Shown here piece by piece: positions 1-39,737 of a DNA stretch of 64,000 bases (positions within the stretch are counted from its first letter, which is position 1; each line of letters begins with the position of its first letter). The notes below the pieces were generated by a model, which saw nothing but the letters and a program-made list of their open reading frames with translations, ran no database searches and was not told the DNA's origin. The position numbers and the translations under genes were made by a program. This DNA is from Lingula anatina (lineage: Eukaryota > Animalia > Brachiopoda), in contig CM120642.1 of assembly GCA_051362555.1 (NCBI GenBank), positions 4,278,001 to 4,342,000 on the forward strand, read 5' to 3'.

Positions 1-173
1 AACAAAATCATTCATATATCGAATCGATATGTTGCTTTTCGGTTGGAAAAAACTAAAGTGACTCAGTAACATGAATTTAATATCGCTGTAATCGACCAGT
101 ATATGTCAAACTTAATATGTGCACCTTAATTTTACATGTAAGAAAATAGCTTCACAAGTTTTTCCAAATTTAA

Positions 174-820
174 GGATATTGTCACCCTTCGCCCAAAAAT
201 CCTTGTTTGGATAATGAATAAATCTTCAGTGTTCAATGACTAAAATAATTATCATTATTCACACATTTGTCATCTTAAAGGTGACGTCATGATTGCGACT
301 TGGGGTAAAAACTAGTTTCTCAAATTTCTCTTTTACCTAAGCACCCATGACCACCGTTTTAACGCCGATTTAATGACACTATTTAGTACTCAAGCACACT
401 GCATGCTGAAAAGTCTTAGTTCAGCTTTTGTCGTTGATCAAGCAAAATAATACCATTGTTTAATAAAAATCTGTAATAAGGGGCTCATAACTCTACAACA
501 AAAACATTTAAACCAAAATGACGAGATTGTACCCTATACACTCCTGGTCACCTTTACCAATTTTTGTGATAAAATCTAGTTCATGGATAAAGTTACGCTC
601 CATACCGTTTGTTATCTCACCTTAAAATAGAAAGGTGTATAAATGAGTTGCCTATGCTTATACATTGCCACAAAAATATAATACACTGATATTTCATGTT
701 TTCCAGGTATTTTCATTATTTAAAATCAGCACAGATATAGATGCATTACTGTTCATGAATAATAAGACGCAGGAAAAATATCTTTTTTGCATCTGGATGA
801 TAATAAGGGGTTCAATAACC
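174..820. mobile_element. Non-autonomous TIR element with TTAA target duplication (Kolobok-like MITE)
   Basis: TTAA at 170-173 and 821-824. Imperfect TIRs GGATATTGTCACCCT and AGGGGTTCAATAACC. The homologous region near 11930-11945 lacks the insert. Confidence 0.6.
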
Positions 821-1632
821 TTAAACGCGTCTTTTTAAAAACAATTTAAGTTAGGCGCCGTTTTTATCTCCACACCGTTGTAATTTTCAGTCTTTTGTTA
901 ACATCTTTCAAAAAAGATTGGGTTGCCGATAACACGAACGCTTGAAAAAAATATATATGACTGCTACACGAAAATTTAAAACAAAGTTGTGTTTTAATAT
1001 CCCAACATTGCCCTATGGGATACAAATTGAGAGATTAAACATACCAGGCAGTTTATTTGCTCAACTTTTTCTCAATAAAAAGTGGATGTTTGGCCAGGCA
1101 CGATATAGGTTAGGCATTGCCATTGTTGAAAAGTATTGATCATTCTGGGCTGTAGTACAGGGGACCATTTGTGTCCCCATGATTTTCTTCAGATCCACTT
1201 GGTTGGTTTGACACAATAGTAAGAGGCAAGTCAAAAAACTGCTGAACCGCCACCACGAGCAACTGTTTTCACAGTTTCCAGAAATTGTTGCACAAACATT
1301 ACATTAAACACGAAGTTAGCCATCAAAACAAAAAACTTCAAGAAGGAATGTCAATTTATCAGAAAATCTGACATGTCACCAATGAACTTAGCAAATTACT
1401 GTAAATAAGTTGATGGACCCATTAAAAGTGCAGTTCATTCTTTGTTGGGTCATAAGAGATTTCTTTTGTGGTCTGCTTTACCAAAGGTCATCACTGAGGA
1501 TCCTGCCATTTACTGTTCCTCAGAAAAAAACAGGTTTTGACAGGCTGTTGACACTTAATAACAGAAGTTGCTGACAATGCTCACTCCTTACTACTACATA
1601 TCTGGTAGAGCATAAGGTCCTCTGTGGCGCTG

Positions 1633-2028
1633 TTACCTTAAAGATACATACAAAGTCAACTTTTTGTCATAAAAACCAACCAAATTTATATGCCAGCATA
1701 TAGTTTCAAGTAGTATAACTAAGAGAATTACCAAAAGGCATTGTTTAATTTTACCAGAAAGTGATGTTTGAACAGATTTTTCTGCTAGCATTCTATGCTG
1801 TATGTCAATGGGGCAGAAAAGAAGGTCACGAAAGTAGGTTAAATTGACAACCAAAAGTTTAAAGAAAGGAGCACTCTAACGCTCTTTTATGGCTGATCGG
1901 GTGATTTATTCAGTTTATCCCTTGGCATGTCGAATTTATTAGAGTCGTATACGAAACTAGTAGAAGTGGTTTACATGTGTTACTGGGAATCAACGCTCCA
2001 CCGATGCTCGGTTCGTATGTACCTTTAA
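1633..2028 (-). repeat. Dispersed repeat fragment starting TTAAAGGTACATACGAACC, an inverted copy of 34193-34585
   Basis: Reverse complement aligns by eye with 34193-34585. The spurious ORFs 1633-1854(-) and 34367-34591(+) are near-identical. Confidence 0.75.
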
Positions 2029-2442
2029 AGGGACCACGAGTGCAGTAGACTGCATGTTTCCCAGGAGCGGACCCAGGATTATGTGAAGGGGAAGCTTGGC
2101 ATGGGTTTGGGGCCCGCTGAAGGTCATACATGGCATCACCTACATGTGCATTATAAAATATTTGAGAATTAAGGCAAATTCCCGTATTTTGATGGCAATG
2201 TACTAGAAAAGTAAATTACTTACAACAGGTAGCTCATAAATAAATGTAAGTCTATCATGTTTTGACCTCAGGAGAGTGGCTATGTCAGGGTTACATCTGT
2301 CACTTAAGCGTTACACGTGCGTGGTCGTGGGACGTTTGCATCTTGACAGAAGACGTTTTATTCATCCAGCTCCGGGTCCATCACAGTAAAATAGTTGGAT
2401 CGAAACGTGCATAACCACTGATTAAGACACTATTGGTGTGCA

Positions 2443-2507
2443 TATAAAAACGAGGACATAGATAGATAAGTAGTGACTCCCGTCTAAGAAGAACCCGCAT
2501 AAAGTAG
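2443..2507 (+). promoter_or_regulatory. Putative TATA box and non-coding first exon of the secreted peptide gene
   Basis: TATAAAAA at about 2443, donor AG|GTAATT at 2508, matching acceptor TTTAAACAG ending at 3053 just before ATG 3066. Confidence 0.5.
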
Positions 2508-3065
2508 GTAATTTAAAAAGCAGAAAACAATAAGAAAAATGATTCATATCAAATCGAGATTTCTCACTTTTATTTGTGAACCACGTAATATCATGTAATG
2601 TGGTATTAATCTGATAGTGGAGAATAACCGATATGTATTTATTTTTTTCCGTAGAGTGTGGCGAAAAAAGTGGAAAAAATAATCTACCAATATGAATTTC
2701 GTAAGCCGCATATTGTAAATCTTGTCTCGTAGAATTTCAATGCTGGTTAGCGTTATACTTATATAACTTTAATACACAATATCTAAAAACTTCAACTAAA
2801 AAACTAGTAATCATAGATTGTAAATTATTCATGGTTTTGGATGTGGTGTACTTTGGCAATTAAGGGATATTAAAGGTGTTGAAATCTACAGGCAAACCTT
2901 TTGTTGTATAAAGGCCTATTCTCATCGTATACCTTTTAATTTAATATACATGTACATATATGGCATTTATTGATATATGTTCGATGCTACTGTAACCAAA
3001 ATATGACGCCATCCTCATTTGATTATTAACTAATTAATTTTCACTTTAAACAGAACGACAACGCC

Positions 3066-6000
3066 ATGAAGGTTTTCATTCTTTTGGTTGCTTGTGTGGC
3101 GTACGCCAGCGCAGGGATTTGTGAAACCGTCTGCAGTCCTTTGTGCAAAACTGGCGTCACTGCAGCCGGCGCTGCAATCAGTGGAGGCACCGCGGCCGCT
3201 GTAGGCGGAGCCGTCGGCACCGCAGTGTGTGGCGTGAGCTGTGACAAGGTCTGCGACCTGGGCGGTAAAGTGGTTGACTGGATCGGCGGTCTCTTCGGTA
3301 AACGTGATGCACCACATACATGGGTGGTCGTAAGTGTCCAATGACTGACAGACCCATACCTTAAATACTCACTCAACAATATAATTACGTCTCCCATGTA
3401 ATTTCTTTTGATGCTCCTGACTGTTATTCAAAATCCATGCTCTATCCTGGCATAACGTGCAATTGTCGTTATACCTCGGTCAAAAATCGAACCCATCAAC
3501 ATGTTCACCATAGATATACAGTATTGTAATATGCTGGTTTAAATTAATGGTTCTTCGTTGGCCGAGCAGGTGATACCAAGGATTTTAATATATTTCATTA
3601 TCATAAAGTTAATCAATTGTTGCTTTTTAACGGAAAAAACTTTAATGGTTTCTACGAGGCGGCCTCCAAGTAACAAATGCTTGCAAGTTCTTTAAAATTT
3701 TAGTATTAGGGGCTTAAGCTAAATAGACGCTTAAATGGTACTTCAATGCCCCTGAGCCCCCCCCCCTTTTTTTTTTTTTTTTTTTTTTGAGATTTTGCAC
3801 CTAAATCAAACTTTCAGCTGGTTATTTGGTTTGCAGGTTGCTCACTGGGAGGGCGAATTCCCAAGACATTTCAACGAGTATGACACCAACAGAGATGGCC
3901 GCATCTCTCACAGAGAATTTGTCAATGCCATCAATGCTGAAGTGAGAGACCTTGCAGCATTGAAAGCTTTCAAGCTGGCCGACACAAACGGTAAGTGGGC
4001 CAAGATAGATAAGGACAATGCGTCTTGGTGTTATACTTGACTGCTTTTGGTCTCAACTTCCCCAGTTAGTAGCAATTTTATAAAACGTTTATTTGAAATC
4101 TTCTAGATTTGAACAGGTTTGGTTTAGGGCCTGTTCACAATAAACTAGTCACTCAAGCTACTGCGCACTGATTCCAAGGGGACCCTCGCTGAATGCAATC
4201 AGATTAATAGCCCAAACCACCTCCTTCGGCTGGAAATTAAACGAGGATGTTGGAAACAAAAGGAGGCGTGTTAGTCTGTTCAGCGAGAGACCCCGTGGAG
4301 CTAGGACAATTAATCAATTGTGTACGGGACCATAGATTTGTGAACATGTTTACTTTGATAAACTTATATTCTACAGATGGGCGTTATCAATATTTATCAT
4401 TACTGCAGCAGTATACTGTAATGTCAGTAGGTATAGGCCTACACCTTTATACTATCCAAGGATATTGAAAAAGAAAACATTCATTGAATCAACATGCATA
4501 TTGTAGAGGTCTCCGCTTTTCTGCCACCAGTGTACGGTTCTCTTACTTCGCTGCCACCAACAAAACAAGGTCTCTGTTTTGTAAACTTTATTTCTACGAA
4601 TAACTCTCAACACAAATGTACATGTTTCTGTATCTTTTACTAAACACTGTCTCTATTCTTGCTGTACTGCTGTACTTCTAATTTAAACAACTGCAACTCA
4701 GCTACAATAAACTAACTGGAACTATATTGTGAAACTGACTCAAACTAAGTTGTGAAACTAAGTCTGACACTATACTCTCACTGAGTACTGCCACTATACT
4801 CTACAGTAACTCTAACTGGCCAACACTGCGTAGAGCAGCTGTATTTATACATTTCAAAAGTGGACGGCCTTGAATGGTTCACTGCTACTTTGACTGGCAG
4901 CCAGAGGAAAAGTGGACGGCCTTGAATGGTTGACCGCCAACCCCTCTACTGGACACCACAATCCCCTCTTTAGTAAACTGATACCACTTACAAGCCATTC
5001 CAACTTAAGGTTCAAAGTTCAACACACACAAGAATGTAAACAAAAGGCTACAGCTTACTGCAGCAACTTTACCATGAATTTTAAGGCTATGTAAAATCGT
5101 TACACTCTCCCCCCCTAGGTTTGATCCCACCGGGGATCTGCCCAACTACTAAATCAGTTAAAACTAAAAATATTCTGAAACATTTAAGCAGTTAAAAATT
5201 CAGTCAATTCATAAAGTTCATTGAATAGTTCAGTGTCACTTTGATTAATAAACTTACTCTAAATTTCAACATTGGATTAATAAAGATTATCATTTAAAGT
5301 TCATTGCCTGATTCATAATAATGTTCACTTTAAAGTTCAAAGTCTGATTAATAATAATGTTCATTTTAAAAGTTCATTGTCACAGTCAATCAGCAAATCT
5401 CTTGGGAGGTCTTCTTTTCCTTTGTGGTCTTCCCTCATTTCTCAAATTACTGTCAGGTTGGTTCTGGGAAACTTGCGCCTGTTTAGATTGGCCACTCTGC
5501 TTCATTCTGTGTTTGATGGCAGTTCCCTCATGTTTCAGTGGACTGCCTTCTACATAATTACCTTTATGTAAACATTTCTGCAAACTGGACACCCAATCTG
5601 GAACTTGGTCACTTAAAAATGGCTTAAGACGGTCATGGTGCACGATCTTCATTTTACACTTAGGCTTGCCTTTCACTGCAAACAACAAATCACTGTGCTT
5701 TTTGACGACAACAAAAGGTCCTTGCCATTTATCACGTTTCAGCTTTGGGCTCAGTCCCACTGTTCTAGTGCTATCTAGTAAGTACACCAAGTCACCAACT
5801 TTATAGTTATTTTGCGAAATACGGGTGTCATGGTCTCTTTTCTGCCTTTGAAAGTCCTTTTTCAAATGCAATCTCACTATTTCATGAATTCTAGTCATTT
5901 TCTCTTGCAACATTTTGACATACTCTGAAGGAGACGTCACAGATCGGTCTTCTGGTGGTTTTCCAAAGATCAGTTCTGTAGCTGTGTGAACTTCTCTGCC

Positions 6001-9000
6001 TAACATAAGCAAATTAGGGGAATAACCAGTGCTTTCATGTTTACAGCACCTGTATGCTGCAGTCAATAAAGGCAAATGAATGTCCCAATCCCGTTGGTCT
6101 TCTGACACGTAAGATGATATCATGTCACATAACACAATATTGAATCTCTCCACCATTCCATTTCCTGAGGGATGATAGCTGGATGTTCGGGTTTTATTTA
6201 TTTCTAATAGTTGACATACTTGTTTGAATAACTGTGACTCATAGTTGCTACCTTGGTCTGAATGGAGATCAAGGGGTAGGCCAAATCTAGAGAAAAACTC
6301 TGTCACTAGCTTGTGTGCTACAGTTTTAGCTGATATGTCAGGGATGGCATAGCACTCCACCCATTTGGAAAACTGGTCCATTGCTAAAAGTATATATTTA
6401 TTGCCTCTTTCACTGACTGGAAAAGGTCCTAAGATGTCTGTTGCCACTCTGTCCATGGGAGCGCCTACAGCATATCTTATCAAAGGAGCCTTAGGTCTCG
6501 ACCGTGGTCTTTTTCTCCCACCACAAATAGCACATCTTCTTATGTAATCTCTTACACTTTCTTTCATCTTGTACCAGTAGAAGTGTCTTTTCAACTTGCT
6601 CACTGTTTTCTTGACACCGAGATGACCCGACGTGACTTTGTCATGTACGCCCTTCATCACCTCATTCCTCATCTCTTTCGGAACCAATATCTGTAAAAAG
6701 GAACCTGTCTTATCTAACGTTTCCCATCTCTTATATAAAATGCCCTCCTGCAGCACAAGTTGGTCCCAAAGCAACCATAACTGTCGCACTGCAGGACTTT
6801 CTGCGGCCACTTTATCTCTTTCTGGTCTCTGTGATGACTGTTCCTTCCAGTCCAGCACAGTCTTCAACTCAGGGTCTTTACACTGCAAATTAAACAATTC
6901 ATTCACAGTGTAACTGCCCAGCCACTCGGCTGGAAGTCTATCTCTGTCACTCTCAGATTCACTGAGATCTGTATCTTCATCACCATGAGAAAAATCTTGA
7001 TCCTTGAATGTCAAGTTTTCTCTAGGCAGCACTTCCCTTTTCTTGGAAACTCTCATCCTTCGAAGAGAAAGTGCTCTAACTTCCTTAAAGATACACTTGA
7101 ATTTCATGGTCACCCAGCTCAGGATTGCAAAGAACAATGTCAGTAGGGTGTAAAGGCCTGTCAATAAAACTGAACAAGCTGCTGTATACACACGTTTTAC
7201 TGGACATTTTCCTCGGTTTCCCGTTGCTTGACCACTGCCACAGACTCCGTTGTCTGATTTTAGTTCTTTCTTTCGGTTTTCTGTCACTCGTCTGGTTACT
7301 AAAGGGACGACTTCTTCTTCCAGATATCTGGACCATTGTTCATGTTTCTTCTTACACTGTACGCAACCCTCGCATGGCAATTTGCTTAAAATGGACTCCC
7401 CATCATAGCATGTACACTCATCTGGGTCGCATGGAAATCTCGATATTGCATCTGCGTTACCGTGTCTGGCCCCTGCTCGGTGTTCTATTTTAAAATCAAA
7501 CTGTGATAGCACTTCCAGCCATCTGGCCATCTGATCATTGGGCTCCTTAAAGGACATAACCCATCGGAGGGCACTGTGATCGCTTCGTACCAAAAACTGT
7601 CTACCCAATAAATGGTGTCTAAATTGTTGAACAAAGGTAACAACGGCAAGCAGTTCTTTTCTAGTCACGCAGTAACGGCGTTGAGTTTTCGTCAATGACT
7701 TACTTGCATACGCGACTGGTTTCTCTATTTCTTTCTGGGTCTTCTCACACCACTGTAACTGAGATAAAACGGCACCAATGCCCGTGGCTGAAGCATCAGT
7801 GTCAAGAATGTACAATCCTTCGTCTCTCGGATACGCCATTACCTCATTACCTGTAAGGGCACTTTTGAGGTCCTCAAATGCTGTCTGACAAGAGTCCGTC
7901 CAAGTAAACGCCTGGCCGGCCTGGAGCAGATGGTTAATTGGAGCAGCTCTTGTTGAAAATCCTCTAATAAATCTACGATAATATGAGCACAGTCCTAGAA
8001 AACTACGTACATCAGTCAGATTCCTGGGAACTGGCCATTTCTTTATACACTCTACCTTCTCAGGATCTGGTTTAACGCCATCTTGTGTCACTACATGTCC
8101 CAAAAACTGAACTTCAGTCTGGAACAACCTGCATTTGCTTGGTTTCAGTTTTAGCCCTGCTTTCCCAAGACGATTAAAAACCTCGTCAAGTCTCTTATAG
8201 TGTTCTTCAAATGATTTACCAAACACAATAATGTCATCAAGGTAAATCAACACTGTCTGCCACTGCAAACCACGTAAAATCAGTTCCATACACCGTTCGA
8301 AGGTTGAAGGAGAATTAGAAAGACCAAAAGGCATAACATTATATTCGAATAACCCATTTCTTGTCACAAATGCAGTCTTTGGCTTATCTTCTTCTGCTAC
8401 CTCGATTTGATAATACCCGCTCTGGCAATCAGCTATTGAGAAGAAAATTGAACCACCAAGAGAGTCTAAACAGTCATTTATTCGAGGAAGAGGGTAAGCA
8501 TCTTTCACTGTTACATCATTTAAGCGTCTATAGTCAACACAGGGTCTTGTTGTTCCATCCTTTTTCTTGACATAAACTAGTGGAGCTGACCAAGGTGAGG
8601 TGGACTCTCTAATAACACCATTTTGGAGCTGTTCCTGAATTATTTTCTCTTCTTCTCCAGCAAACGCTCTAGGGGGTCTTCTGGGCTGCTGTTTTATGGG
8701 TCTTGCATCACCAGTGACGATCTTATGCTTCACGACAGATGTGTGACCCATGTCACTGGAAGACTTGGCAAAAACATCACTGTGCTTCTGCAGGAGTTTC
8801 TTTAATTCACATCTTTCAAAGTCAGTCAAATTCTCACCTGACTGTTTATAGAGGTCAGCCAGGTACTCAGGCAATTCTAGGCTATGAAGGGTTAAGTCTG
8901 ACTTTTGTTTACCAGGGGTTAAGTCTGCTCGTAAGATGGGCACAGAAAGGCTATCTTCAAGTTTATCACCAATCACATGGTCTACTTCATGTAAATGAGC

Positions 9001-11592
9001 AACGCAGGTGTCTTTCAAAAGTGAAATGTCTTCATTAGAAGGGTTAAGGAGTCTCACAGGTATTTTATTGTCTCTTCTGAAAGGATCAACTAGCACATGT
9101 CCGATCAGAAAATCACTTGACTTCTCTGGAATTTCCTCTACCAGTCCGAATACTGATTTTATTTTGCTAGAATCAACTGTCCCTTCTATGATCAACTCAC
9201 TGTTTGCAGGAATAATAACGTCATTAGTCACTGTCACTCTAAAGGCATGCTTTGGTTCCCTCTCAACCAAACATGGCACTCTCTTCCCATTAAGTTTCAG
9301 TCCGTTCACACCTAGTGAAAAATCATGATGGCACAGGAAGTCCATTCCTAACAAACCATCGTCCTTTATTTTTGCTACAAGCATGTCCCACACAAACATT
9401 TCTTCGCCAGACTGAAAACTTATTTCTACATGGCCTTCAATTTCAATGTTTCTACTGTCTGCAACCTGCAGCTGCAATTTTCTATGAGTCTTTTTCAGTT
9501 CAGGTCTAAAATCATGGGGAATTTGTTCATAAATGTGGGTAGATATAATTGTTTTTGACGCACCAGTGTCTACAATAAAGTTCACTTCTTGGCCCTGAAT
9601 CTTCACTGGCCAAGAAACACTAGCATTTCTACAACTAACGGTTTCAATGTCACTGTCAACAGGTGTTTTTAGGGGTTCATTCTGGCCGGCTGGAATGCCC
9701 CTTCTCAGTTTCCCTGGTTGTTTACATGCGGAGCCTCTTTCACAGGTGCCTTGCATTCTCTTGCCAGATGCCCATATCTATGGCACTTGAAACACTCTAT
9801 GTTGTTTTTCCAATTTTCTGACTTGGGTGGTGGAGAACTTTTCGTGTCTTTTGCTTTCTCTTTCATTATCAAGTCTTTAATTTCATCTAACTTCTTGTCA
9901 AACTTCTTTTCAAGCTGGTGTAGCTGACTTTCTGTTACAACAGCCTCAGGATTTGCTGCCCTAACACTTGGTCTTTTCACTGCCTCTTCTCTTAGACTGT
10001 TATACATTTCAAGGGCCTCCCTTGCTTCGTCTAGATTTTTGGGCGTTTTCATGCCCACTGCCACGGCGGCTTGATGGTCTGGCAACCCTTTTATGAAGTG
10101 GCGCAATGCAATGGCCTCACGTGTGGTGCAGTCAGCCGTCGGGTAACCTTTTAACACTAACTTTCTAATATCGGATATGTACTCTGGCAGTTTCTCTCTT
10201 GAACTAAGCTTTCTATTTTCTAGCTCTGACAGATAGGAGCTTGTAGTGCGCTTTTCTTGAAATCGGTTTTGCAACGCCCTCTGTAGTAGAGGGTAGGAAT
10301 TTACCACTTCTGCTGACAACTGCACAAAGGCGAAATCAGCAGCCTCACCACGCAGACTGTTACATAATCTAAACAGTTTCTCAGACTCACTCCATTCACA
10401 AGTCTGGCTTAGTGCTTTGAATGGCTCAATGAAACCCTCCCAGGATTCTTTTCCACTAAAGAGAGTCTGTCTGGGCAAAGGTATTTCAAAGTTACTACGG
10501 CCGTTAATTCTGTGAAATGGGGTAGGTGTAGGGGTTATTGTTTCTGATATGATTTCATTCTGGGCTCTGTGTTCTATTTCTGTCACTTTCTGTCGCTCTA
10601 GGGCTCTGACTCTCTGTCCTGCAGCCTCAGCACGTGCCTCTAAGACGTCAGCATTCTCTTTAGCTTTTCTTAGTAATCTTTCTTTTTCTGCCTCTGCTTC
10701 TTCTACAGCAACTTGAATTCTGTGAGTGGAATTTTCTTTTTCAGCTTCAAGAGCTCTGCAGGCTTCTTCTAACTGTTCCTCCAGGTTTCTCACTTCCTCC
10801 TGGTCAGCTCTGTTGTCCTTTTTAGGAGGCATTTTGAATTTCTTCACTTGTCTTTCGGCGTGTTAAAGTCTGTATCCCAGCGCTTGCCACCAGTGTAAAG
10901 GTCTTCGCTTTTCTGCCACCAGTGTACGGTTCTCTTACTTCGCTGCCACCAACAAAACAAGGTCTCTGTTTTGTAAACTTTATTTCTACGAATAACTCTC
11001 AACACAAATGTACATGTTTCTGTATCTTTTACTAAACACTGTCTCTATTCTTGCTGTACTGCTGTACTTCTAATTTAAACAACTGCAACTCAGCTACAAT
11101 AAACTAACTGGAACTATATTGTGAAACTGACTCAAACTAAGTTGTGAAACTAAGTCTGACACTATACTCTCACTGAGTACTGCCACTATACTCTACAGTA
11201 ACTCTAACTGGCCAACACTGCGTAGAGCAGCTGTATTTATACATTTCAAAAGTGGACGGCCTTGAATGGTTCACTGCTACTTTGACTGGCAGCCAGAGGA
11301 AAAGTGGACGGCCTTGAATGGTTGACCGCCAACCCCTCTACTGGACACCACAATCCCCTCTTTAGTAAACTGATACCACTTACAAGCCATTCCAACTTAA
11401 GGTTCAAAGTTCAACACACACAAGAATGTAAACAAAAGGCTACAGCTTACTGCAGCAACTTTACCATGAATTTTAAGGCTATGTAAAAATCGTTACAATA
11501 TATATTTCTTTTTTGGATATTTCTTTCAAGGTGATGACTACATCGACAGAGATGAACTCAAGGCTGCTCCCTTCAAGTTTGCAAAGAACTGA
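3066..11592 (+). CDS. Secreted precursor, 159 aa: signal peptide, 6-Cys Gly/Ala-rich peptide, GKR site, EF-hand pair (antimicrobial-peptide-like)
   Basis: Coding exons 3066-3329, 3837-3990 and 11531-11592 with GT-AG introns in compatible phases (480 nt). Signal MKVFILLVACVAYASA. EF loops DTNRDGRISHRE and DTNGDDYIDRDE, the second split by the intron. AATAAA at 11675-11680. Confidence 0.85.
4502..5104 (-). repeat. Gypsy 3' LTR
   Basis: Direct repeat of 10894-11497. On the minus strand it has TATAAAT (about 4842-4849) and AATAAA (about 4587-4592). Internal duplicate AAAAGTGGACGGCCTTGAATGGTT. Confidence 0.95.
5386..9714 (-). CDS. pol: Gypsy Pol (protease, RT, RNase H, integrase), reached by a -1 frameshift
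   Basis: FIVDTGAS protease motif, YLDD RT motif, DTDAS RNase H, H-x-H...C-x2-C zinc motif and DDE integrase core (TDILGP, HSDQG, GMVER). Domain order PR-RT-RH-IN. Confidence 0.96.
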   Translation of the reverse strand, partial: GKLRRGIPAGQNEPLKTPVDSDIETVSCRNASVSWPVKIQGQEVNFIVDTGASKTIISTHIYEQIPHDFRPELKKTHRKLQLQVADSRNIEIEGHVEISFQSGEEMFVWDMLVAKIKDDGLLGMDFLCHHDFSLGVNGLKLNGKRVPCLVEREPKHAFRVTVTNDVIIPANSELIIEGTVDSSKIKSVFGLVEEIPEKSSDFLIGHVLVDPFRRDNKIPVRLLNPSNEDISLLKDTCVAHLHEVDHVIGDKLEDSLSVPILRADLTPGKQKSDLTLHSLELPEYLADLYKQSGENLTDFERCELKKLLQKHSDVFAKSSSDMGHTSVVKHKIVTGDARPIKQQPRRPPRAFAGEEEKIIQEQLQNGVIRESTSPWSAPLVYVKKKDGTTRPCVDYRRLNDVTVKDAYPLPRINDCLDSLGGSIFFSIADCQSGYYQIEVAEEDKPKTAFVTRNGLFEYNVMPFGLSNSPSTFERCMELILRGLQWQTVLIYLDDIIVFGKSFEEHYKRLDEVFNRLGKAGLKLKPSKCRLFQTEVQFLGHVVTQDGVKPDPEKVECIKKWPVPRNLTDVRSFLGLCSYYRRFIRGFSTRAAPINHLLQAGQAFTWTDSCQTAFEDLKSALTGNEVMAYPRDEGLYILDTDASATGIGAVLSQLQWCEKTQKEIEKPVAYASKSLTKTQRRYCVTRKELLAVVTFVQQFRHHLLGRQFLVRSDHSALRWVMSFKEPNDQMARWLEVLSQFDFKIEHRAGARHGNADAISRFPCDPDECTCYDGESILSKLPCEGCVQCKKKHEQWSRYLEEEVVPLVTRRVTENRKKELKSDNGVCGSGQATGNRGKCPVKRVYTAACSVLLTGLYTLLTLFFAILSWVTMKFKCIFKEVRALSLRRMRVSKKREVLPRENLTFKDQDFSHGDEDTDLSESESDRDRLPAEWLGSYTVNELFNLQCKDPELKTVLDWKEQSSQRPERDKVAAESPAVRQLWLLWDQLVLQEGILYKRWETLDKTGSFLQILVPKEMRNEVMKGVHDKVTSGHLGVKKTVSKLKRHFYWYKMKESVRDYIRRCAICGGRKRPRSRPKAPLIRYAVGAPMDRVATDILGPFPVSERGNKYILLAMDQFSKWVECYAIPDISAKTVAHKLVTEFFSRFGLPLDLHSDQGSNYESQLFKQVCQLLEINKTRTSSYHPSGNGMVERFNIVLCDMISSYVSEDQRDWDIHLPLLTAAYRCCKHESTGYSPNLLMLGREVHTATELIFGKPPEDRSVTSPSEYVKMLQEKMTRIHEIVRLHLKKDFQRQKRDHDTRISQNNYKVGDLVYLLDSTRTVGLSPKLKRDKWQGPFVVVKKHSDLLFAVKGKPKCKMKIVHHDRLKPFLSDQVPDWVSSLQKCLHKGNYVEGSPLKHEGTAIKHRMKQSGQSKQAQVSQNQPDSNLRNEGRPQRKRRPPKRFAD
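9671..9714 (-). promoter_or_regulatory. -1 programmed ribosomal frameshift signal
   Basis: Slippery heptamer G GGA AAC (9714-9708) directly before the gag stop, followed by hairpin AGGGGCATTC...GAATGAACCCCT. pol is in the -1 frame relative to gag. Confidence 0.85.
9705..10832 (-). CDS. gag: Gypsy Gag with N-terminal coiled coil and C-terminal CCHC knuckle
   Basis: First ATG (MPPKK) at 10832. Capsid-like region. CFKCHRYGHLAREC zinc knuckle. Confidence 0.93.
   Translation of the reverse strand: MPPKKDNRADQEEVRNLEEQLEEACRALEAEKENSTHRIQVAVEEAEAEKERLLRKAKENADVLEARAEAAGQRVRALERQKVTEIEHRAQNEIISETITPTPTPFHRINGRSNFEIPLPRQTLFSGKESWEGFIEPFKALSQTCEWSESEKLFRLCNSLRGEAADFAFVQLSAEVVNSYPLLQRALQNRFQEKRTTSSYLSELENRKLSSREKLPEYISDIRKLVLKGYPTADCTTREAIALRHFIKGLPDHQAAVAVGMKTPKNLDEAREALEMYNSLREEAVKRPSVRAANPEAVVTESQLHQLEKKFDKKLDEIKDLIMKEKAKDTKSSPPPKSENWKNNIECFKCHRYGHLARECKAPVKEAPHVNNQGN
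10894..11497 (-). repeat. Gypsy 5' LTR
   Basis: Direct repeat of 4502-5104, adjacent to the PBS and upstream of gag. Confidence 0.95.
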
Positions 11593-25630: not shown

Positions 25631-27646
25631 TTAAAGACTTGCTCGTTGAAATAATTTATAAATGATCATGTAGTAATCAATTGCGTGTATCGCTTTTAGT
25701 TTGCTGCGATCGAGTAAATGTAAGTAAGCGGATAGCTGAATTGAATATGGCTTTCTGAGCCTCGACGCAAGTGACGTCACTCGCCTCAAAGCGCCACCAC
25801 GCGGGAGTATCGTAAACTACATTCACACCTGCATAAAATCGGCTTTAAAAACTAAATAAACGTAAGAACTTTTTTTCATTACTCAAAAATGACTTTTGGG
25901 CACCTAATGGATAGTTTTAACCCGTTTTTTCATCACAGTATACCTTTAACTTCTCCGTCTGTATGCACCATGCAGCTCAGTTGTGTCTCATAGACCTTTA
26001 TCGTGATTGTCGTCACAGTACCACGTGACCTAGATCTGTTGCTTCATTTTTGCATATTGAGGTGAGGTTTACTAAAACGCTTTTTTTTCTACTAATAGAT
26101 TGTTTTTATAATTTTTAAATGGCGGGGATCGATTAAAACATACCTCTAGTGTATAGATTGAGTGCTGTATCTTCAAAATTCGAGAAATGGATTTTTACAT
26201 GAACATTGTCCTTTAACATGGGCTTTCTCGTTTTGAAAGTCTGAATTTGGAGAGATAGTTATCTATTGCTTTGAAGATATATATTTTTAGAACAAAACAA
26301 CGTTGGGTCATTTTCAAATGTGTATCAACACCTTTTAGATAAACATTTAAGAATCTGTTAAGGATTTTCTCATACAGGGGCTGTTGAACTGCATTGGAGC
26401 TGTGATCTCAGGGATGTGTAAAAGGAAAAGTGGTCATATCGTCAACATGTCGTCAGACTGTGTAAAGCAGGTAGGCCTAATCCTGTCAGCACTCTCTGTA
26501 AAATATGAAAGCGTAAAACGCCCGAATTTGAACCTACCACTCGGCCTTCCGATTCAGACAAAAAATTCCATGATTTATTTATCGAGATTTTAGTTATATA
26601 TTTTTGACAAAATTGTGTCGGATCAAATCAGTTCGCACCTTCTTTATTCTACAAATCTGCGTCCATTCTTTACCTCAGAGTGTATTGAACATTCCCGATT
26701 TTGTAAATTTAACAGTAAGCTTTCAAGAGTACTTGTTATTCAGTGCAGTTCAGGTAAAACGTTGGTTTCTTGGAACCTTTGTAAAGAATCATTAAAATGT
26801 AACCCCCCATCCCCACCCCCGTTTTATTAAACAAATGTCTTTGCCTTTTTCTAAACAATTAATACAGTGTCGTATACTCTGAACTCAACGTAATAGGCTT
26901 CTCAATTAATTACTTTAAAGTAATTAAAATTTCATTAGAAATTGAGTTTTGCATACTTGTATCTGACATTATATTGATTCCGTTTATATGCACACGGAGT
27001 CAAGCTACGCCTTATGGCCCTATGACATTCCAGCCTTTCGTAGGGTTAGCCGTGTACGCAGGGTCGAAGTACTTCCTAGAGGGTATGTCACGGACGCTTC
27101 GTCAGGAAGTTTGTAAGGATGGTGTTCGCGTTACTTGTGTTCAGCCTGGTGACGTTGACACGCCTGGGGCCGTCAAGACTTTGATGACTTTAGAAGATGA
27201 GCAGGTGAAACACATTTACGGCTTTAAAAAGGCAAACCATGCGTACTACATCTTTATGTCACGGAAAAATTAAACCCAGAGGAGGATGTAATGATGCATG
27301 AGTTCCAGCTTTTACTGCCACGAGTGAATTTCACCATTCTGTATATCTCGAGGCATTACAAGAATGACTCAAAATATAACGAACTCAGAACCTAGTTAAT
27401 GGATCATAATTATATAAATGGGTATATGTGTTGGGTACGGTAAACTACAACTGAGAGAATAACAAATTAATGGACCGATAATGTATCAATATATTATTGC
27501 AATTTCAGTGTAAAGCACTGTACAGCTACCCACACCCAGCTCTGGAACCTGAAGTCATCGCACAGGCAGTCCTCTACGCAGTCGCGCAGCCAGATCACGT
27601 GGCCGTCAACGAGATTCTCGTGGAGCCCAGAGAGTGCCCGCTGTAG
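25347..27646 (+). pseudogene. SDR copy A, lacking coding exons 2-3 (Rossmann fold)
   Basis: Mini-exon 25347-25365 (MQTTGK), then exons 26378-26470, 27034-27204 (YAGSK) and 27509-27646. No TGASSGIG or NNAG exon is visible in the intervening 1 kb, and the splice phases are incompatible (1 versus 0). Confidence 0.8.
25575..25626. repeat. (TA)n microsatellite
   Basis: About 25 TA units. Confidence 0.95.
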
Positions 27647-33130: not shown

Positions 33131-36100
33131 ATGCAGACGTCTGCAAGAGGTGAGTTCAAGCACCACCTGAGTAAACGGAGGTGTTAAATTTATACTTGGA
33201 TTTTTTTATGCCTATAGTACATAACAGGGGCGAATCCAGTGATATTTTTGACAGTCTTCCATACTATATTTGTTGACCCATCCTCCATTTTTTGACCGTC
33301 TTCCGACTGACAAAATAGATACCCATTAATGTAAACTTGAAAATCTGACCATCTTCCGGAAGACTCAGAAGACAGTCTAAATCCGCCCCTGCATAGGGCG
33401 CTTTCAGTCGGATCAGTGCAATAGAACCTGGATTTTCACAATTTCTGAACTGCACCCACATCTGTTAAATGTCGCTTTACCTAGGTCACACATTGTTATG
33501 AGTGTTTTTAAAATGGGTGTTTTATATTGCATTGTTGAAGACATTTTGTCTAAGTACAAGTACCGTAGATGACATCTATAGTTGACTGAAACCTGGATGT
33601 ACCTGCAAACACTTAAATGTACATCACCTCGAAGCATTTCGTCTAATGGGAGCTGAGACTGGTGGTGGGGGGAGGGGGGTCCGGGTTCATTGCACGCGTC
33701 GCTGATGCTTAAACCCCCTTTACACTGGACGGCGTACTTTCTGCGTCCATTCTGCGACCATGAAATTTGGCAACGCTCTGGTCTAAATAAGGAGGCACGA
33801 GCATTGATTCTGTAGCAGAATGAATGCTCAATGATCGGCCAGTTGTCGGCATGTAAAGTATTATTTTTTAACTCTCAAATGGGGCCGTACTGCTGGACGC
33901 AGAAAGGACGCCGTCCAGTGTAAAGGGGGCTTAAAGTGAAGCTCATACAAAGTCCTGCGTCTGCTCTATATAATATACCGGCGATATTCTATAGGTACGG
34001 GTTGGCTTGAAAGGAAATACACGTGTGCACACCGGCCCTTTGTGTAACAGGTACATGTATACTGAACAAAAATATAAACGTATGAAAGAATATGTTGATT
34101 TATTTTCATGTATGGAACTAGAGTATTTATCCAACAATAACAGCATATTTTCCTCAACAAATAGACATCACTTTGAGAGCATTACAGGAAGTTTAAAGGT
34201 ACATACGAACCGAGCATCGGTGGAGCGTGGATTCCCAGTAACACATGTAAACCACTTCTACTAGATTCTTATGTGACTCGAATTAATTCGACATGCCAAG
34301 GGATAAACTGAATAGATCACTCGATCAGCCATAAAAGACCTTTAGACTGCTCCTTTCTTTAAATTTTTGGTTGTAAATTTAACCTACCGGTACTTTCGTG
34401 ACCTACTTTCCTGCCCCATTGACATGCAGCTTAGAATGCCAGCAGAAATATCCGTTCAAACATCATTTTCGGGTAAAATTAAACATTGCCTTTTGGTAAT
34501 TCTCTTAGTTATACTACTTGAAACTATATGCTGGCATTTGGTTGGTTTTTGTGACCAAAAATTGACTTTGTATGCATCTTTGAATGCATAGTCCAAGAGT
34601 TAAACATCAACCTCACCATGGGGGTCAACATCCTGAGTTCACAGATACTAATAACGACTATGGCCACCAACTGACCATTTTAGTTTCGTGCGTTTATATT
34701 TTAGTTCAGTGTACATACGGAAACCTTTGCCCTGCCCGGAAAATTCTGTAGGAACAAATTAAAGGAATTAGTCTACATGTTATAATGCGTATTTAAGCAA
34801 AGTAAAGAAAAAATAATAAAAAAGAAGAAATTATTTTGCGAATACTGTCATCATAGCGAGTGTTGTTGTGTCTTTAAAAAACTTAAAGTTATAACGCTTC
34901 ACTTTTTATGATTTATGTTTCCACATGGGGTATTGAGTAAGAAGTTTTGAAGTTCCTTTACTAGTAAAAATTATGTTATTTACGTCGTCATTTATTTCAA
35001 GGTCCTCCTATATACATGTACTGGTACAATGAGGTTCTCTGCTGTACTCATCGTACGCTTGCTCACGACCCTAAATTTGCTCAATTCTAACAGTTGGTGT
35101 GCCGCCAGTCAATTATATCAAATTAGAAGGCTTTGAATTAAGTTTTATTCATTAAACAGAAAATTTAATACATTTTTCAGATAACAAACCTCTTTCTGGA
35201 AAGGTTGCCGTGGTAACAGGAGCCTCTAGTGGCATTGGTGCTGCCATCTCTCGTCAGCTGGCTGCTGCTGGTGCCAAGGTTGCCATGGCAGCAAGGCGGG
35301 AGAACTTGTTAAAAGAAATCCAGGATGAAATTTCAAAGGAAGGGGGCGTAGCTCTAGCAGTGAAATGCGATGTAACGAACAGAGCTGAGGTAAAAAGGGG
35401 GTAACATTGTATATGAACGAGATGCCAGTCGTGTTATATATGAATTGGGGCAGGAATTTTCGCTAATATTCGCGTTTGGTAATATTTATATAATTTTAAG
35501 AAATAAAACAGAGGAAAAGTTTTGTTCGGGATTAACGAGAGTTTGAGGGAAAGGCGGAGGGCTCTATGCGGCATCTTCCGGTAGTGTTCTTCAAAGTGAA
35601 AGCAACGTTGTTCTTTACATGGCAAGACAACGGTGTACGCTTATACCTTGTACCTGAATAGTGGGGGGCCTTAAAATGAAGTTGTCCAAAGTATTCTTAA
35701 AATGGTTAAATTGTTATTGATAATAATAATCTAAAAAAACTAGCATTGAAAGATGACAATACTAAATATCTCTGCGTAGGTGAAGGAGCTTATTCAGCAC
35801 ACAGAGAGCACCCTGGGTCCCGTGGATATCTTGGTGAACAATGCGGGTATCTGGGTGATAAGGTGTATGAAGAACCTTCACGAGGAGGAGTGGGATCAGC
35901 AAGTGGATGTGAACATCAAGGTAGGGCCAAAATGGGTTTTAAAGTACTGGCAGTCAGTAATTATCGACAATCCTCAAGTTTGGACTGGGACTGGTTTTTT
36001 GTACCATTTCAATTAAACATTGTTCTAAGCGAATTATTATATATTTAGAAAACCATGCTTCTTTCTTGCTGAACATGAAGGAAACGCCAACATAGGCTAT

Positions 36101-38033
36101 ATTTATTTGATGGTTATTTTCTAGTGTGAAAGTCTGAACTTGGAAAGGAACACTTGTAGACACGTATTTTTAGGCCATGTAGACAAGAGATGTGGCGTTA
36201 GAGCATTCTCAAATGTGTATAAACACCTTAAATACCTTACAGAATCTTTGCGAATCCTCTTCTACAGGGAGTATTGAACTGTATTGGAGCTGTGATCTCG
36301 GGGATGTGTGAAAGGAAAAGAGGTCATATCGTCAACATGTCGTCACAAAATGGAAAGACGGTAATAGTTAATTGTCAGCTCTCCCTTCTGTATGAAAAAT
36401 GCAAGTGGGACTCTCCGATTCAGTCAGAAAGCCTGTTGACCTATCAGTTTTCAGAGTTGCAAAAATAATCCTTGGTGATTTTCATCATTTTGTCACAAAC
36501 TTGGTTCACTTAGACCTATTTCGTTTAGTTAATCAGTTTGTTCTTACGTCCCTCATTCTGTAAATCAAAACAGCTGCAACTGTTCATTCAATAGCATTTT
36601 AACTTCAAAAAGTGCAAGGAACCTTGTCATCAAATATACTATTCAAACCCCAGTTAATTGTCATTTTTTATATTTATAGCACCACCGTTACCGCACTGAA
36701 ACAAATTCGACTAAACAAATTTTATATACCGGTAGTTACATGTACGTACGCTACACTGAAGGCAATGCACATGTAGATCGAGCTCTAATAGCTGCAACAT
36801 GAAATTTAAAGCGTTTTACATATTTGGATCAGACATGCTGCAAACCTTCACTTCAATTCAATTCTTTTGCAATGCACATTAATCTATTGCATATATTACT
36901 ATTATATTCCAGCCTTTGGTAGGGATAGCCGTATACACAGGGTCGAAGTTCTTCGTAGAGGGGATGTCACGGACGCTTCGTCAGGAAGTTTGCAAAGATG
37001 GCGTACGTGTTACTTGTATCCAGCCTGGCGAAGTTGAAACACCCGGTTTGGCCAGGTATTTAATGACAATGGAAGATGAACAGGTAAAACTTTTAAAGAC
37101 ATACTATGTCCACTAGATTTCTTATTGCCCCCTTTTAAAGTAAAAATCGATAATTGATCTACATGTACATGACATGCTACATCGTCAAATTAAATTAAGG
37201 GTTACAAGTTAATTTGCATTTGTTTTATAACCAGTGATTGTGCTACACTTATATGTATACGTTATGTCAGTGGTTGCATTGTTTATATCGTGTAAAGCAT
37301 AACAGAATTAAGAGAATTGGGGCAGCATACTGTACTGCAGATTAATTACATGTACACAAAACATGTGACAGTTGAAGGCTTCAGAAAACCGAAGAACTAA
37401 AATATCTCGTACCGTGCATATTAAGAGTGTAGGTTTTACAATACACTGTATCTTGCCATTTAATTAAAATGGTCGTTTGGGATTGTGAACGACTTAAACT
37501 GCGATTTCATGGCGCGAAAGTCAAAATACTTGCTGCGAGCACCGCAATATTTATTTCAAACGATTTGGTCAGCTTTAGATCGGGTCTGTCGCTGGTTATG
37601 TACGAAAACTGCACGCCAAGCTTTCAGAAAGTCTAAAATAGTAACAAATAGGATAAAGTAAAAGTAGATTCCATGAAATTTTGGTTTAGTAGTTAATTTA
37701 GAAGCCCGTGGCTCGAGATTACTAACGGCAATTTTTCTTTGTGAGGCCTAAATATCAAAATGGCATTTCGGCTGGCATTTGCTTCCGCGATTGTTTTGAT
37801 TGCAGAATAGATGAAGCAAATTCTCTTTGAGAAGAGCATTATAAAAACCAGTGACCTAGAGCGTGCAAAAAATATTATTATCATTTCAGTGTAAACAGCT
37901 GTACACTTACCCTCGCCCTTACCAAATTCTGGAACCTGAAGTCATCGCACAGGCAGTCCTCTACGCAGTCACGCAGCCGGAGCACGTGGCCATCAACGAG
38001 ATTCTTGTGCAGCCCAGGGAGGCCCCGCTGTAG
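33131..38033 (+). CDS. SDR copy B, classical NADP-type short-chain dehydrogenase (YdfG-like), 258 aa
   Basis: Exons 33131-33149, 35181-35389, 35780-35920, 36268-36360, 36913-37083, 37890-38033 (777 nt). Motifs [24 protein letters not shown] and QPG. Confidence 0.92.
33225..33391. mobile_element. Small MITE in SDR B intron 1
   Basis: TIRs CAGGGGCGAAT and ATCCGCCCCTG. Absent at the paralogous site near 48010. Confidence 0.7.
33712..33931. mobile_element. PIF/Harbinger-like MITE
   Basis: About 37-bp TIRs CCCCCTTTACACTGGACGGCGT... at a TTAA-like site. Absent in the paralogous intron near 60860. Confidence 0.8.
34193..34585 (+). repeat. Dispersed repeat fragment, inverted copy of 1633-2028
   Basis: Starts TTAAAGGTACATACGAACCGAGCATCGG and aligns with the reverse complement of 1633-2028. 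Confidence 0.75.
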
Positions 38034-39737
38034 TTCATACCACTTGTTTAGTGTTTGGTATCTAATTAGAAAGCGGTGTTAGCAACAAGATACATATTTG
38101 GGAATTATTATCGGTCATCATATTCAAGGGACTCGTACCTTGTTTGGAGCAAATGCCAAGACAAGTGGTTTTATAAACTAGATTTCTCTAAGGTACTGGA
38201 CTTCACATTAAATCAGGCAGTATATACAGTATTCTGCTTTCTTTCTGCTATATTAAACCTTTGGACTTTTTCGGCAATTCATTTGAACAGGTATGCTGTT
38301 GCGCGCGCTGCTACAATTTGCATAAAAGCATTAGACTTACCCTTTACCAGGGCCACAGATTGAATTTTCACTAGATATTCACAGATTATGTCGCTGGTTA
38401 AATATCGTCAATCTCCTAACTGGAAATGTGGAAAATGTGCATATAATATCCGCCACCCTGTATAACGGAGGCTCATATTGCAGTTGTATTCTTTTTATTC
38501 TTCCGTAAATACAAGTCATGATCTCCATTAGTTTAACAGTGAAAACGTTGATGTCTATACCCTTTACTGTAATCCTGTAATAATAAACAAATATAGTACT
38601 TAGACTTCGTTCGTTATTATTTTACCTTTCGTTGCGTTACAATCTAAGTATACTCATTAACTTGTTATACAGTTTTTCCAATAAGGGCTTTCGCTTACAC
38701 GCTTTCGCTTACACACTAAGTTATAAGACTTACTTCTAGGTTTGGACATTATTGTTACTTTTGCATTTTAAATTATTAGCCTTTAACTATTGTTATATAA
38801 TAAAAAAGATAGAATAAATTACCTTGACTTAAGAAATATCTGTTAAATGTGAAGCGCTCTTTTGCATGAAACCACATGGTTTCGGACATCTTATAACAAA
38901 AAAATAGTACCGGAAGAACAAAAATGACTGCGTTTTAACAATGTAAAAAATATATATATGTTTAACTGCAAAAATGTAAATAATGAAAACCAAAAGACAA
39001 TAATAATTTAAAGAAACACAATCACAAAGTGTAAAACATAAGTAAAGTAAGCTATCTTCGTGCAGAACTTATTTCCCGCGTAGTAAAATAAACGCAAACA
39101 AAAAATGCATACTTCCGTCGCAATCTTGTGAGAGCATCTATCGCAATCACTAACTAACATTACTGGCTGCAGTTACACACCCCCCCCAAAATCTATCTAA
39201 GATTTTTAACAACATTAAGAGTGCATTAAATTAAATATAATACCAAAAAAAAAAAAAAAAAAAAAAATCATTTCCAATGTAAAACTGGATCCAAAGATCA
39301 AGGAGTAAATGATAAACACAAAATAAACACTATTTGCTATCAATACATTAACCGCTGCATGTAAAGGTTATATGTTCTACCTTAATTTCCTTTATAACTT
39401 GTTGCTTAAGGTAAATCCACATGTCACCTTAATATAGTACACTAACATACTTTCTTACACCCATAACTCACCGTTCACGCCCTAGACCTATTGTGAAACT
39501 AGCTTTGTCTATTTTCCAAGTCACCGTGAAGACTGAGAACTAAAAATGAAATGACATTTTTTAAAGGATTCATGATCCAAGTTACCAACTCAAACAGTGG
39601 GAATGAATCCAAAAAATTTATATCCTACCTTAAACAATAAAACTCACAACATCAACATTCAAACTTAACTACAAGTTTTAAACAGTTAGTCATTGAGCAA
39701 CTCACTCACTTACAGTCCTAATTACATTCAGAGAGTA

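What the first reader, a model, noticed from the sequence alone, without database searches (positions are those of the whole stretch)
3066..11592. Secreted Cys-hairpin/glycine-zipper peptide fused to an EF-hand propiece, a candidate new defence-peptide family
Seen: after a 16-aa signal comes a 61-aa segment with the symmetric pattern C-x3-C-x3-C-x27-C-x3-C-x3-C. It encloses a Gly/Ala small-xxx-small core (GVTAAGAAISGGTAAAVGGAVGTAV) and ends in an amphipathic tail (LGGKVVDWIGGLF), then G-KR, then two canonical EF-hand loops. Known: G-K-R is the prohormone-convertase/PAM amidation signal, mussel mytimycin precursors carry a C-terminal EF-hand extension, and Gly-zipper helices are typical of class II bacteriocins. 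Inference: a disulfide-stapled helical hairpin, membrane-active and amidated, released from a Ca2+-binding propiece. The Cys spacing does not match defensin, macin or mytimycin patterns that I recognise.
Basis: partly seen in the sequence, partly recalled or inferred. Interest (0 to 1): 0.8.

Follow-up and report, generated by a model that had tools for sequence, protein, structure and literature searches.

The report
Lamp-shell hairpin peptide with calcium tail
A lamp shell (Lingula) carries a small gene family, also found in a chiton, for a predicted secreted protein in which a greasy, cysteine-rich peptide is likely cut away from a calcium-binding tail and likely acts on membranes as a defence molecule, a layout known from mussel antifungal peptides but here with an unrelated peptide that has no positive charge.

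Summary
Three exons (3066-3329, 3837-3990, 11531-11592) give a 159-aa precursor: 16-aa predicted signal, 61-aa C-x3-C-x3-C-x27-C-x3-C-x3-C peptide, G-KR, two EF-hands. It matches Lingula anatina XP_013384083 at 156 of 159 residues. Three more Lingula loci and one chiton protein keep the six Cys, the Gly/Ala core, G-KR and both EF loops. No Pfam or NCBIfam family reaches its cut-off on the peptide, and none of 10 paper searches turned up a description of it.

- All six mature peptides are net anionic (-1 to -2) and hydrophobic, not cationic.
- The amphipathic tail is absent in the chiton.
- The peptide is conserved among paralogues, not hypervariable.
- Four RNA runs showed no reads on exons 1-2, so the junctions rest on homology.
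- A young Gypsy element sits 33 bp before the last acceptor.

Best reading (0.45): an amidated, disulfide-stapled helical hairpin that acts on membranes through hydrophobic contacts, released from a mytimycin-like EF-hand propiece. Activity, processing and disulfide pairing are untested. Verdict: a real, apparently undescribed family and a new variant of a known precursor design.

The parts
3066..3329 (+). Coding exon 1: signal, whole mature peptide, G-KR and 8 residues of the propiece; phase-0 donor follows
   Evidence: colinear with P0003, P0004, P0005
3066..3113 (+). Predicted signal peptide, 16 aa, GRAVY 2.07, ends A-S-A; no signal predictor was available
   Evidence: 14-16 of 16 identical among Lingula copies
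3114..3296 (+). Predicted mature peptide, 61 aa, 5.6 kDa reduced, six Cys as two CxxxCxxxC triads around a 27-aa core (63% Gly/Ala/Ser, one charged residue); net -1; 12-aa amphipathic tail
   Evidence: model helices 2-12, 17-22, 27-60, mean pLDDT 57
3297..3305 (+). G-K-R: convertase site with amidation glycine (function inferred from established prohormone processing)
   Evidence: present in 6 of 6 sequences
3837..3990 (+). Coding exon 2: EF-hand 1 (loop at 3882-3917) and the start of loop 2
   Evidence: Pfam EF-hand_1/5/6 above cut-off
11531..11592 (+). Coding exon 3: rest of EF loop 2, C-terminus and stop; AATAAA follows at 11675
   Evidence: matches C-termini of P0003, P0004, P0005
4502..11497 (-). 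Gypsy-type LTR retrotransposon in intron 2, antisense. LTRs 4502-5104 and 10894-11497 are 99.5% identical, target duplication ATAT; gag-like ORF 10862-9708, pol ORF 9777-5389; ends 33 bp before the exon-3 acceptor
3030..3053 (+). Likely splice acceptor of a 5'-UTR intron (branch-like CTAAT, pyrimidine tract, AG at 3052-3053); upstream exon not located
   Evidence: sequence only; one candidate GTAAGT donor at 2246, unverified

Best explanation
The gene encodes a predicted secreted precursor that is likely cut at G-KR to release a likely amidated, hydrophobic 61-residue peptide, predicted to fold as a disulfide-stapled helical hairpin, which likely acts on target membranes as a defence molecule. 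Shown: gene model, six-Cys frame, Gly/Ala core, G-KR, EF-hand pair, and their conservation in four Lingula loci and a chiton. Inferred steps: (1) the signal routes it to the secretory pathway; (2) the two CxxxCxxxC triads pair as a ladder (C1-C6, C2-C5, C3-C4), closing a 27-residue small-xxx-small loop whose centre of symmetry falls on a Gly-rich turn (S-G-G in Lingula, G-D-I-P-G in the chiton); (3) the acidic Ca2+-binding propiece keeps the greasy peptide soluble or helps pack it in secretory granules; (4) a convertase, carboxypeptidase and PAM release the amide; (5) the hairpin enters and self-associates in lipid through Gly-zipper contacts, anchored in Lingula by the Trp/Phe tail. It would rely on hydrophobicity rather than charge and so tolerate seawater salt.
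For: The same signal / Cys-rich peptide / dibasic site / anionic EF-hand layout defines the antifungal mytimycin precursors (PMC8004829). Six Cys, core composition (58-74% G/A/S, one charged residue), G-KR and both EF loops are kept in 6 of 6 sequences across two phyla. The mature peptide sits wholly in exon 1 and the EF pair in exons 2-3. In P0001 the mature part is better kept than the propiece (51-52 of 61 against 43-47 of 75), so the peptide is under constraint. There are at least four loci in L. anatina, in two pairs with neighbouring accession numbers. The model places both Cys triads on helices at block pLDDT 65-71. Tail hydrophobic moment is 0.48, best 19-residue hydropathy 1.3-1.5. 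A PHM-like amidating enzyme is listed for Lingula (PMC4595640 Suppl. Table 25). Precedents: amidated ladder-disulfide helix-loop-helix turgencins (PMC7024374); hydrophobicity-driven salt-stable action of big defensins (PMC7203481). Three of the weak profile hits are to membrane- or envelope-active peptides (halocin C8 domain E 0.01, microcin V 0.053, pardaxin 0.072), all below cut-off and probably driven by composition.
Against: No activity, peptide or immune-expression data exist here. The mature peptides are net anionic, unlike mytimycins (charge 0 to +10) and turgencins (pI 8.3-9.2). Paralogues are not hypervariable. The chiton member lacks the amphipathic tail. No read fell on exons 1-2 in 4 of 4 RNA runs (9.5-12.4 million records each, 6-25% of each run, tissue unknown, no single-copy control gene in the stretch). 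The model is low-confidence in the core (pLDDT under 50 at residues 15-36), and in the full-length model residues 1-95 are under 50. Other weak hits are to unrelated Gly/Ala-rich proteins such as phage tape measure, Gp5_OB and a cyclohydrolase. The same precursor layout also occurs in signalling precursors such as nesfatin/NUCB2 (PMC9004410).
Confidence: 0.45

Rival explanations
1. It is a hormone or neuropeptide precursor: the amidated Cys-stabilised peptide is a receptor ligand and the EF-hand part is a granule Ca2+-binding spacer, as in nesfatin/NUCB2.
For: G-KR amidation, strong conservation of the peptide among paralogues and no reads in four bulk RNA runs fit a product of few cells. NUCB precursors join a dibasic-released N-terminal peptide to EF-hands (PMC9004410). 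A snail interneuron gene with putative neuropeptides plus an EF-hand is cited by title in PMC8398477.
Against: A 27-residue core with one charged residue and GRAVY about 1 offers little for receptor specificity (inference). Four near-identical copies and patchy occurrence (2 hits among 1.84 billion representatives) are unlike conserved hormones.
Confidence: 0.2
2. It is a self-assembling or surface-active peptide with a non-killing role (mucus, periostracum, chaetae, egg coat or sperm-egg membrane contact), kept soluble by the Ca2+-binding propiece until release.
For: The hydrophobic, uncharged, Gly/Ala-rich core is conserved. Lingula has many small Ala-rich secreted proteins (PMC4595640). Narrow tissue or stage expression would explain.
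Against: It was not found in two Lingula shell proteomes. Amidation and a precise six-Cys frame are more typical of bioactive peptides (own knowledge).
Confidence: 0.17
3. It is an uncut secreted EF-hand protein for calcium handling in biomineralisation, with the hairpin acting as a membrane or matrix anchor.
For: EF-hand domains occur in all seven lophotrochozoan shell proteomes compared (PMC13425148). Both host animals mineralise hard parts.
Against: None of the four Lingula accessions is in the supplement of PMC13425148, where a control accession occurs 13 times and the EF-hand-pair entries are two other proteins. The domain list of the 65 shell proteins of PMC4595640 has no EF-hand. G-KR is kept in 6 of 6 sequences.
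Confidence: 0.08
4. Whatever the family does, the copy in this window may be an impaired allele, because a recent Gypsy insertion separates the exon-3 acceptor from its upstream intron sequence. This is compatible with any of the functions above.
For: The element ends 33 bp before the acceptor, its LTRs are 99.5% identical, and nine sense-strand AATAAA lie inside it. No reads fell on exons 1-2.
Against: All three exons and splice dinucleotides are intact and the protein is 156 of 159 identical to the RefSeq model. The polypyrimidine tract is untouched and branch-like motifs lie in the LTR end. The mature peptide is encoded wholly upstream. The RNA runs need not come from carriers of the insertion.
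Confidence: 0.25

Closest known systems
Mytimycin precursors of mussels (PMC8004829)
   Same: Signal, Cys-rich mature peptide, dibasic site, anionic C-terminal extension with an EF-hand domain that the paper describes as encoded by its own exon; multi-copy genes; role of the EF-hand unknown
   Different: Mytimycins have 10-14 Cys, are cationic and are reported only from Mytilida. This peptide has 6 Cys in two CxxxCxxxC triads, a Gly/Ala core, net -1 to -2 charge and an amidation Gly. No mytimycin appeared among the hits.
Turgencins A/B of the ascidian Synoicum turgens (PMC7024374)
   Same: Six non-adjacent Cys, amidated C-terminus, helix-loop-helix with C1-C6/C2-C5/C3-C4 pairing (the pairing predicted here)
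   Different: Turgencin A is 36 aa; both are cationic and carry CXMAC and KKXGG motifs, absent here; no long hydrophobic Gly/Ala core
Halocin C8 domain (TIGR04449) and Gly-rich class II bacteriocins / microcin V (PF17508)
   Same: Hydrophobic small-xxx-small core flanked by Cys; weak hits (E 0.01 and 0.053). The likeness to Cys-closed Gly-zipper bacteriocins is recalled, not from a call
   Different: Scores 16.8 of 24 and 14.5 of 27 bits, below cut-off; prokaryotic, different precursors; no true relative found in genome, metagenome, viral or plasmid scans
Nemertean neurotoxin B-IV and cytolysin A-III / parborlysins (PMC6410017)
   Same: B-IV is a disulfide-cross-linked helical hairpin; A-III has a C-terminal amphipathic helix needed for lysis and parborlysins have six Cys; same superphylum
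   Different: Parborlysins are about 10 kDa with pI 9-10; no sequence match in the PDB search; no EF-hand propiece seen in the passages read
Nesfatin-1 / nucleobindin-2 precursors (PMC9004410)
   Same: N-terminal peptide released at a dibasic site from a secreted EF-hand protein
   Different: The 82-aa nesfatin and the leucine zipper of NUCB have no counterpart; this precursor is only 159 aa
RefSeq XP_013384083/4, XP_013384082, XP_013384726, XP_013384729 (L. anatina) and XP_064604097 (Liolophura sinensis)
   Same: These are the family itself; the first is the orthologue or allele
   Different: [quoted passage not shown]

Membership tests
Mytimycin | Signal + Cys-rich peptide + dibasic site + EF-hand extension | tested here: met
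   against PMC8004829
Mytimycin | Core of 10 invariant Cys (10-14 in all) | tested here: not met
   6 Cys in the mature region of all six sequences; array described
Mytimycin | Cationic mature peptide (pI 7-10, charge 0 to +10) | tested here: not met
   side-chain charge -1 to -2 in 6 of 6; pI 4.68 for the unamidated window peptide
Mytimycin | Propiece homologous to the mytimycin EF-hand extension | tested here: inconclusive
   no mytimycin among 8 hits of a whole-protein profile, but only 7,993 candidates were scored; three mollusc-only 133-145 aa EF-hand clusters scored 0.78-0.79 in the Atlas, a lead only; no direct alignment made
Mytimycin | Antifungal activity, haemocyte expression | not testable with these tools
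   no assay; RNA tissues unknown
Turgencin | Six non-adjacent Cys and C-terminal amidation | tested here: inconclusive
   six Cys and a G-KR signal are present; amidation itself not observed
Turgencin | C1-C6/C2-C5/C3-C4 connectivity | not testable with these tools
   inferred from symmetry; the model output gave no S-S distances
Turgencin | CXMAC and KKXGG motifs, cationic pI | tested here: not met
   motifs from PMC7024374 absent from alignment A3; anionic
Halocin C8 domain (TIGR04449) | Score at or above the 24-bit cut-off over the 69-position model | tested here: not met
   best 16.8 bits, positions 3-49; hit in 4 of 5 queries, not in the chiton protein
Microcin V / Gly-zipper bacteriocins | Profile match above cut-off | tested here: not met
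   MccV 14.5 of 27 bits in 1 of 5 members; no other bacteriocin family listed at E up to 10
Big defensin | N-terminal prodomain, hydrophobic domain, then a cationic beta-defensin domain | tested here: not met
   propiece is C-terminal and the hydrophobic core lies between the Cys triads (PMC7203481); no defensin family
Nesfatin/NUCB precursor | Sequence homology, leucine zipper, 82-aa N-terminal peptide | tested here: inconclusive
   no direct comparison made; no NUCB among hits; the 159-aa length leaves no room for the NUCB layout
Lingula shell matrix proteins | Detected in the shell proteome | tested here: not met
   0 accession hits against 13 for a control; no EF-hand in Suppl. Table 27; absence from two lists is not proof
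EF-hand pair (calmodulin-lobe type) | Two 12-residue loops with ligands at 1, 3, 5, 9, 12 in helix-loop-helix | tested here: met
   loops in 6 of 6; Pfam above cut-off; block pLDDT 77-85 in both hands (58 in the linker block) and about 2 A rmsd to CDPK and calmodulin lobes at E about 0.02-0.07; Ca2+ binding not measured

The most novel reading that the evidence does not exclude
An old lophotrochozoan family of non-cationic, glycine-zipper pore-forming hairpins, an animal counterpart of bacterial Gly-zipper bacteriocins. It is carried on an EF-hand propiece that serves as a reusable Ca2+-dependent carrier module for unrelated defence peptides (this one and mytimycins).
Probability: 0.2. Interest if true: 0.72.

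Novelty: new variant of a known kind. Interest (0 to 1): 0.5.

Why it matters
The mytimycin paper states that the role of the EF-hand propiece is unknown and treats it as a mytilid acquisition. A second, unrelated peptide on the same kind of propiece, in a brachiopod and a chiton, shows the design is wider. It also offers a clean test system: with and without a tail, with and without Ca2+. If the peptide proves membrane-active, it would be an uncharged, salt-tolerant animal defence peptide of a type that charge-based screens miss, hidden under automatic EF-hand gene names. If not, it remains an undescribed secreted peptide family in two poorly studied groups.

Tried and rejected
1. Run search: no RNA holder listed; nine raw-read RNA runs were offered by species label. 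Four were laid.

2. Complex prediction of peptide against propiece with 2 Ca: no answer, score 0.00 in two runs, alignments not used, peptide fold uncertain. It is no evidence either way, so the chaperone idea stays untested.

3. Fold searches: Foldseek gave 0 matches for the mature model. VIA-align against 48,161 chains gave only generic helix pairs, best Z 4.7 at rmsd 6-8 A. No named fold; this neither excludes nor shows novelty. PDB sequence searches gave 0 hits and 3 chance hits.

4. First homologue search found nothing because its length window (48-154) excluded the 158-160 aa relatives. The five extra hits (P0006-P0010) are generic EF-hand proteins without the Cys frame.

5. Prokaryote, virus and metagenome scans: 0 of 599, 1 of 256 (L001 matches 19 residues, has no second triad or core, rejected), 0 of 600, no plasmid match. 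The 12 loci match the EF part only; 0 of 13 loci hold the double triad. No sign of horizontal origin.

6. Atlas: EF-hand clusters only, all under 0.9; no usable hit for residues 1-80.

7. Shell protein 09615 (159 aa) was rejected: Ala 6% and no Pfam domain, against Ala 15-17% and EF-hands here.

8. Literature: 10 searches; the accession, locus and motif search found 0 papers. The 2018 paper on the Lingula immune system (Dev Comp Immunol 82:7-30) is not held and may describe these genes. The mytimycin supplement was listed but not read. PMC11359391 and PMC9589101 passages were not relevant.

9. Earlier scan notes: none similar by sequence, words or nearby place.

Full report
Observation. The ATG lies at 3066. 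Exons 3066-3329, 3837-3990 and 11531-11592 have canonical GT/AG ends and give an open 159-aa protein. Residues 1-16 look like a signal peptide (GRAVY 2.07; judged by eye, no predictor). Residues 17-77 carry Cys at 19, 23, 27, 55, 59 and 63. Residues 78-80 are G-K-R. Residues 81-159 are acidic (net -4) with EF loops at 104-115 and 137-148. The double CxxxCxxxC frame occurs once in the window and in 0 of 60 Markov simulations. Exon 2 passes Pfam EF-hand cut-offs; exon 1 passes nothing.

Identity and family. A phmmer search of exon 1 against 1.84 billion representatives gave 2 hits at E up to 0.001: P0001 (84%) and P0002 (42%). They are Lingula anatina XP_013384729 and the chiton Liolophura sinensis XP_064604097. 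A region search gave 2 of 773 candidates, adding XP_013384726, whose cluster holds XP_013384082 and XP_013384083/4. The window protein differs from XP_013384083 at 3 of 159 residues, so the window is from Lingula and the splice model matches an independent annotation. A whole-protein profile added only five generic EF-hand proteins among 7,993 scored candidates. The known family is therefore four Lingula loci and one chiton gene. The true range is unknown, because no animal genome collection could be searched here.

What is conserved. In 6 of 6 sequences: signal, two CxxxCxxxC triads with a spacer of 26-27, a core of 58-74% Gly/Ala/Ser with one charged residue, G-KR, and two EF loops. The pairwise window-chiton alignment has 31 of 81 identities. 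Not conserved: the 12-residue amphipathic tail. The chiton has G-KR two residues after the last Cys, where Lingula continues. All mature peptides are net anionic (-1 to -2) and hydrophobic (GRAVY 0.74-0.94). Among Lingula copies the mature part is 49-60 of 61 identical; in P0001 it is better kept (51-52 of 61) than the propiece (43-47 of 75). This points to constraint on the peptide, or to gene conversion, and not to the rapid diversification reported for mussel AMP families.

Structure. AlphaFold2 on five mature sequences gave helices 2-12, 17-22 and 27-60, mean pLDDT 57, with blocks of 65-71 on the Cys-bearing arms and under 50 in the core. The full-length model is confident only over the EF pair, which superposes on calmodulin-type lobes at about 2 A. 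A ladder of three disulfides follows from the symmetry and from the turn residues at the centre of symmetry. It is an inference; no S-S distances were available.

Expression. Reads of four RNA runs (three studies, 9.5-12.4 million records each, tissue unknown) laid on 1-4490 at 90% likeness covered repeats only; depth over 2101-4050 was 0 in 4 of 4. This argues against broad constitutive expression. Neither junction was seen in reads.

Surroundings. Intron 2 is 7,540 bp, of which 6,996 are an antisense Gypsy-type element with 99.5% identical LTRs and an ATAT target duplication, ending 33 bp before the acceptor. It may impair this allele; the mature peptide is encoded upstream of it. No second copy of the gene lies in the window. 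The rest holds tandem short-chain dehydrogenase genes, a Bel/Pao element and a LINE-like ORF.

Mechanism. Best reading (0.45): a secreted precursor cut at G-KR to an amidated, disulfide-stapled hydrophobic hairpin that enters and clusters in membranes through small-xxx-small contacts, with the Ca2+-binding propiece as a solubility or packaging aid. The anatomy and conservation are shown; secretion, cleavage, amidation, pairing, membrane action and the defence role are inferred. Support is by analogy: mytimycin precursor layout (PMC8004829; parts 1-2 of 5 and passages read), turgencin fold and amidation (PMC7024374, passages), hydrophobicity-driven salt-stable big defensins (PMC7203481, passages), and a PHM-like enzyme in Lingula (PMC4595640, passages and supplement part 9). 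Sub-threshold hits to halocin C8, microcin V and pardaxin are matched by equally weak hits to unrelated Gly/Ala-rich proteins and count only as leads. Halocin C8 background is from bioRxiv 10.64898/2026.07.27.741052 (passages). Rivals: signalling peptide 0.2 (PMC9004410 passages; a cited title in PMC8398477); surface or structural peptide 0.17; uncut biomineral EF-hand protein 0.08 (PMC13425148 abstract, passages and supplement term search).

Comparison with known families. It is built like a mytimycin precursor but is not a mytimycin (6 Cys against at least 10; anionic against cationic). It may share the turgencin disulfide ladder but lacks their motifs and charge. Nemertean B-IV and A-III offer a hairpin and a lytic-tail precedent within Lophotrochozoa (PMC6410017, passages) without a sequence match. 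The likeness to Cys-closed glycine-zipper bacteriocins is recalled and reached no cut-off.

Novelty. Ten paper searches found no description, and the accession search found 0 papers. The library lacks most subscription journals, including the 2018 survey of Lingula immunity, so prior mention is not excluded. Verdict: a real gene, an apparently undescribed small family, a new variant of the peptide-plus-EF-hand-propiece design; interest 0.5.

Noticed in passing
window 4502-11497 (-): Very young Gypsy-type LTR element with open gag-like and pol frames that overlap at 9708-9777; LTRs differ by 2 mismatches and 1 gap in 604; inserted 33 bp from a splice acceptor.
   Followed up: partly
window 26300-27228, 35162-37089, 50521-52432, 61545-62226+ (+): Tandem array of multi-exon short-chain dehydrogenase (adh_short) genes, four copies; only two exons of the first copy were matched, and the last runs toward the window end.
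   Followed up: partly
window 38461-46378 (-): Bel/Pao retrotransposon with 100% identical 718-bp terminal repeats (38461-39178, 45661-46378) and two long ORFs (45694-44270, 44309-39741); the first holds a Pro/Val/Thr/Ala-rich repeat.
   Followed up: partly
window 53029-55963 (+): LINE-like reverse transcriptase ORFs (755 and 233 aa) interrupting the third dehydrogenase copy, between the duplicated blocks 50493-53049 and 56401-57238.
   Followed up: no
window 1640-2030: A repeat of about 390 bp (inverted copy at 34581-34192) that draws hundreds of RNA reads at 90-95% likeness in all four runs, probably from UTR copies elsewhere.
   Followed up: no
P0001 (XP_013384729) against the other Lingula copies: Mosaic pattern: signal and mature peptide about 84-100% identical, propiece only about 57-63%; suggests exon-1 gene conversion or stronger constraint on the peptide.
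   Followed up: partly
window 3991-4037: Read-through of intron 2 stays in frame for 15 codons to a stop and would give a truncated second EF loop; a possible product if exon 3 is not spliced.
   Followed up: no
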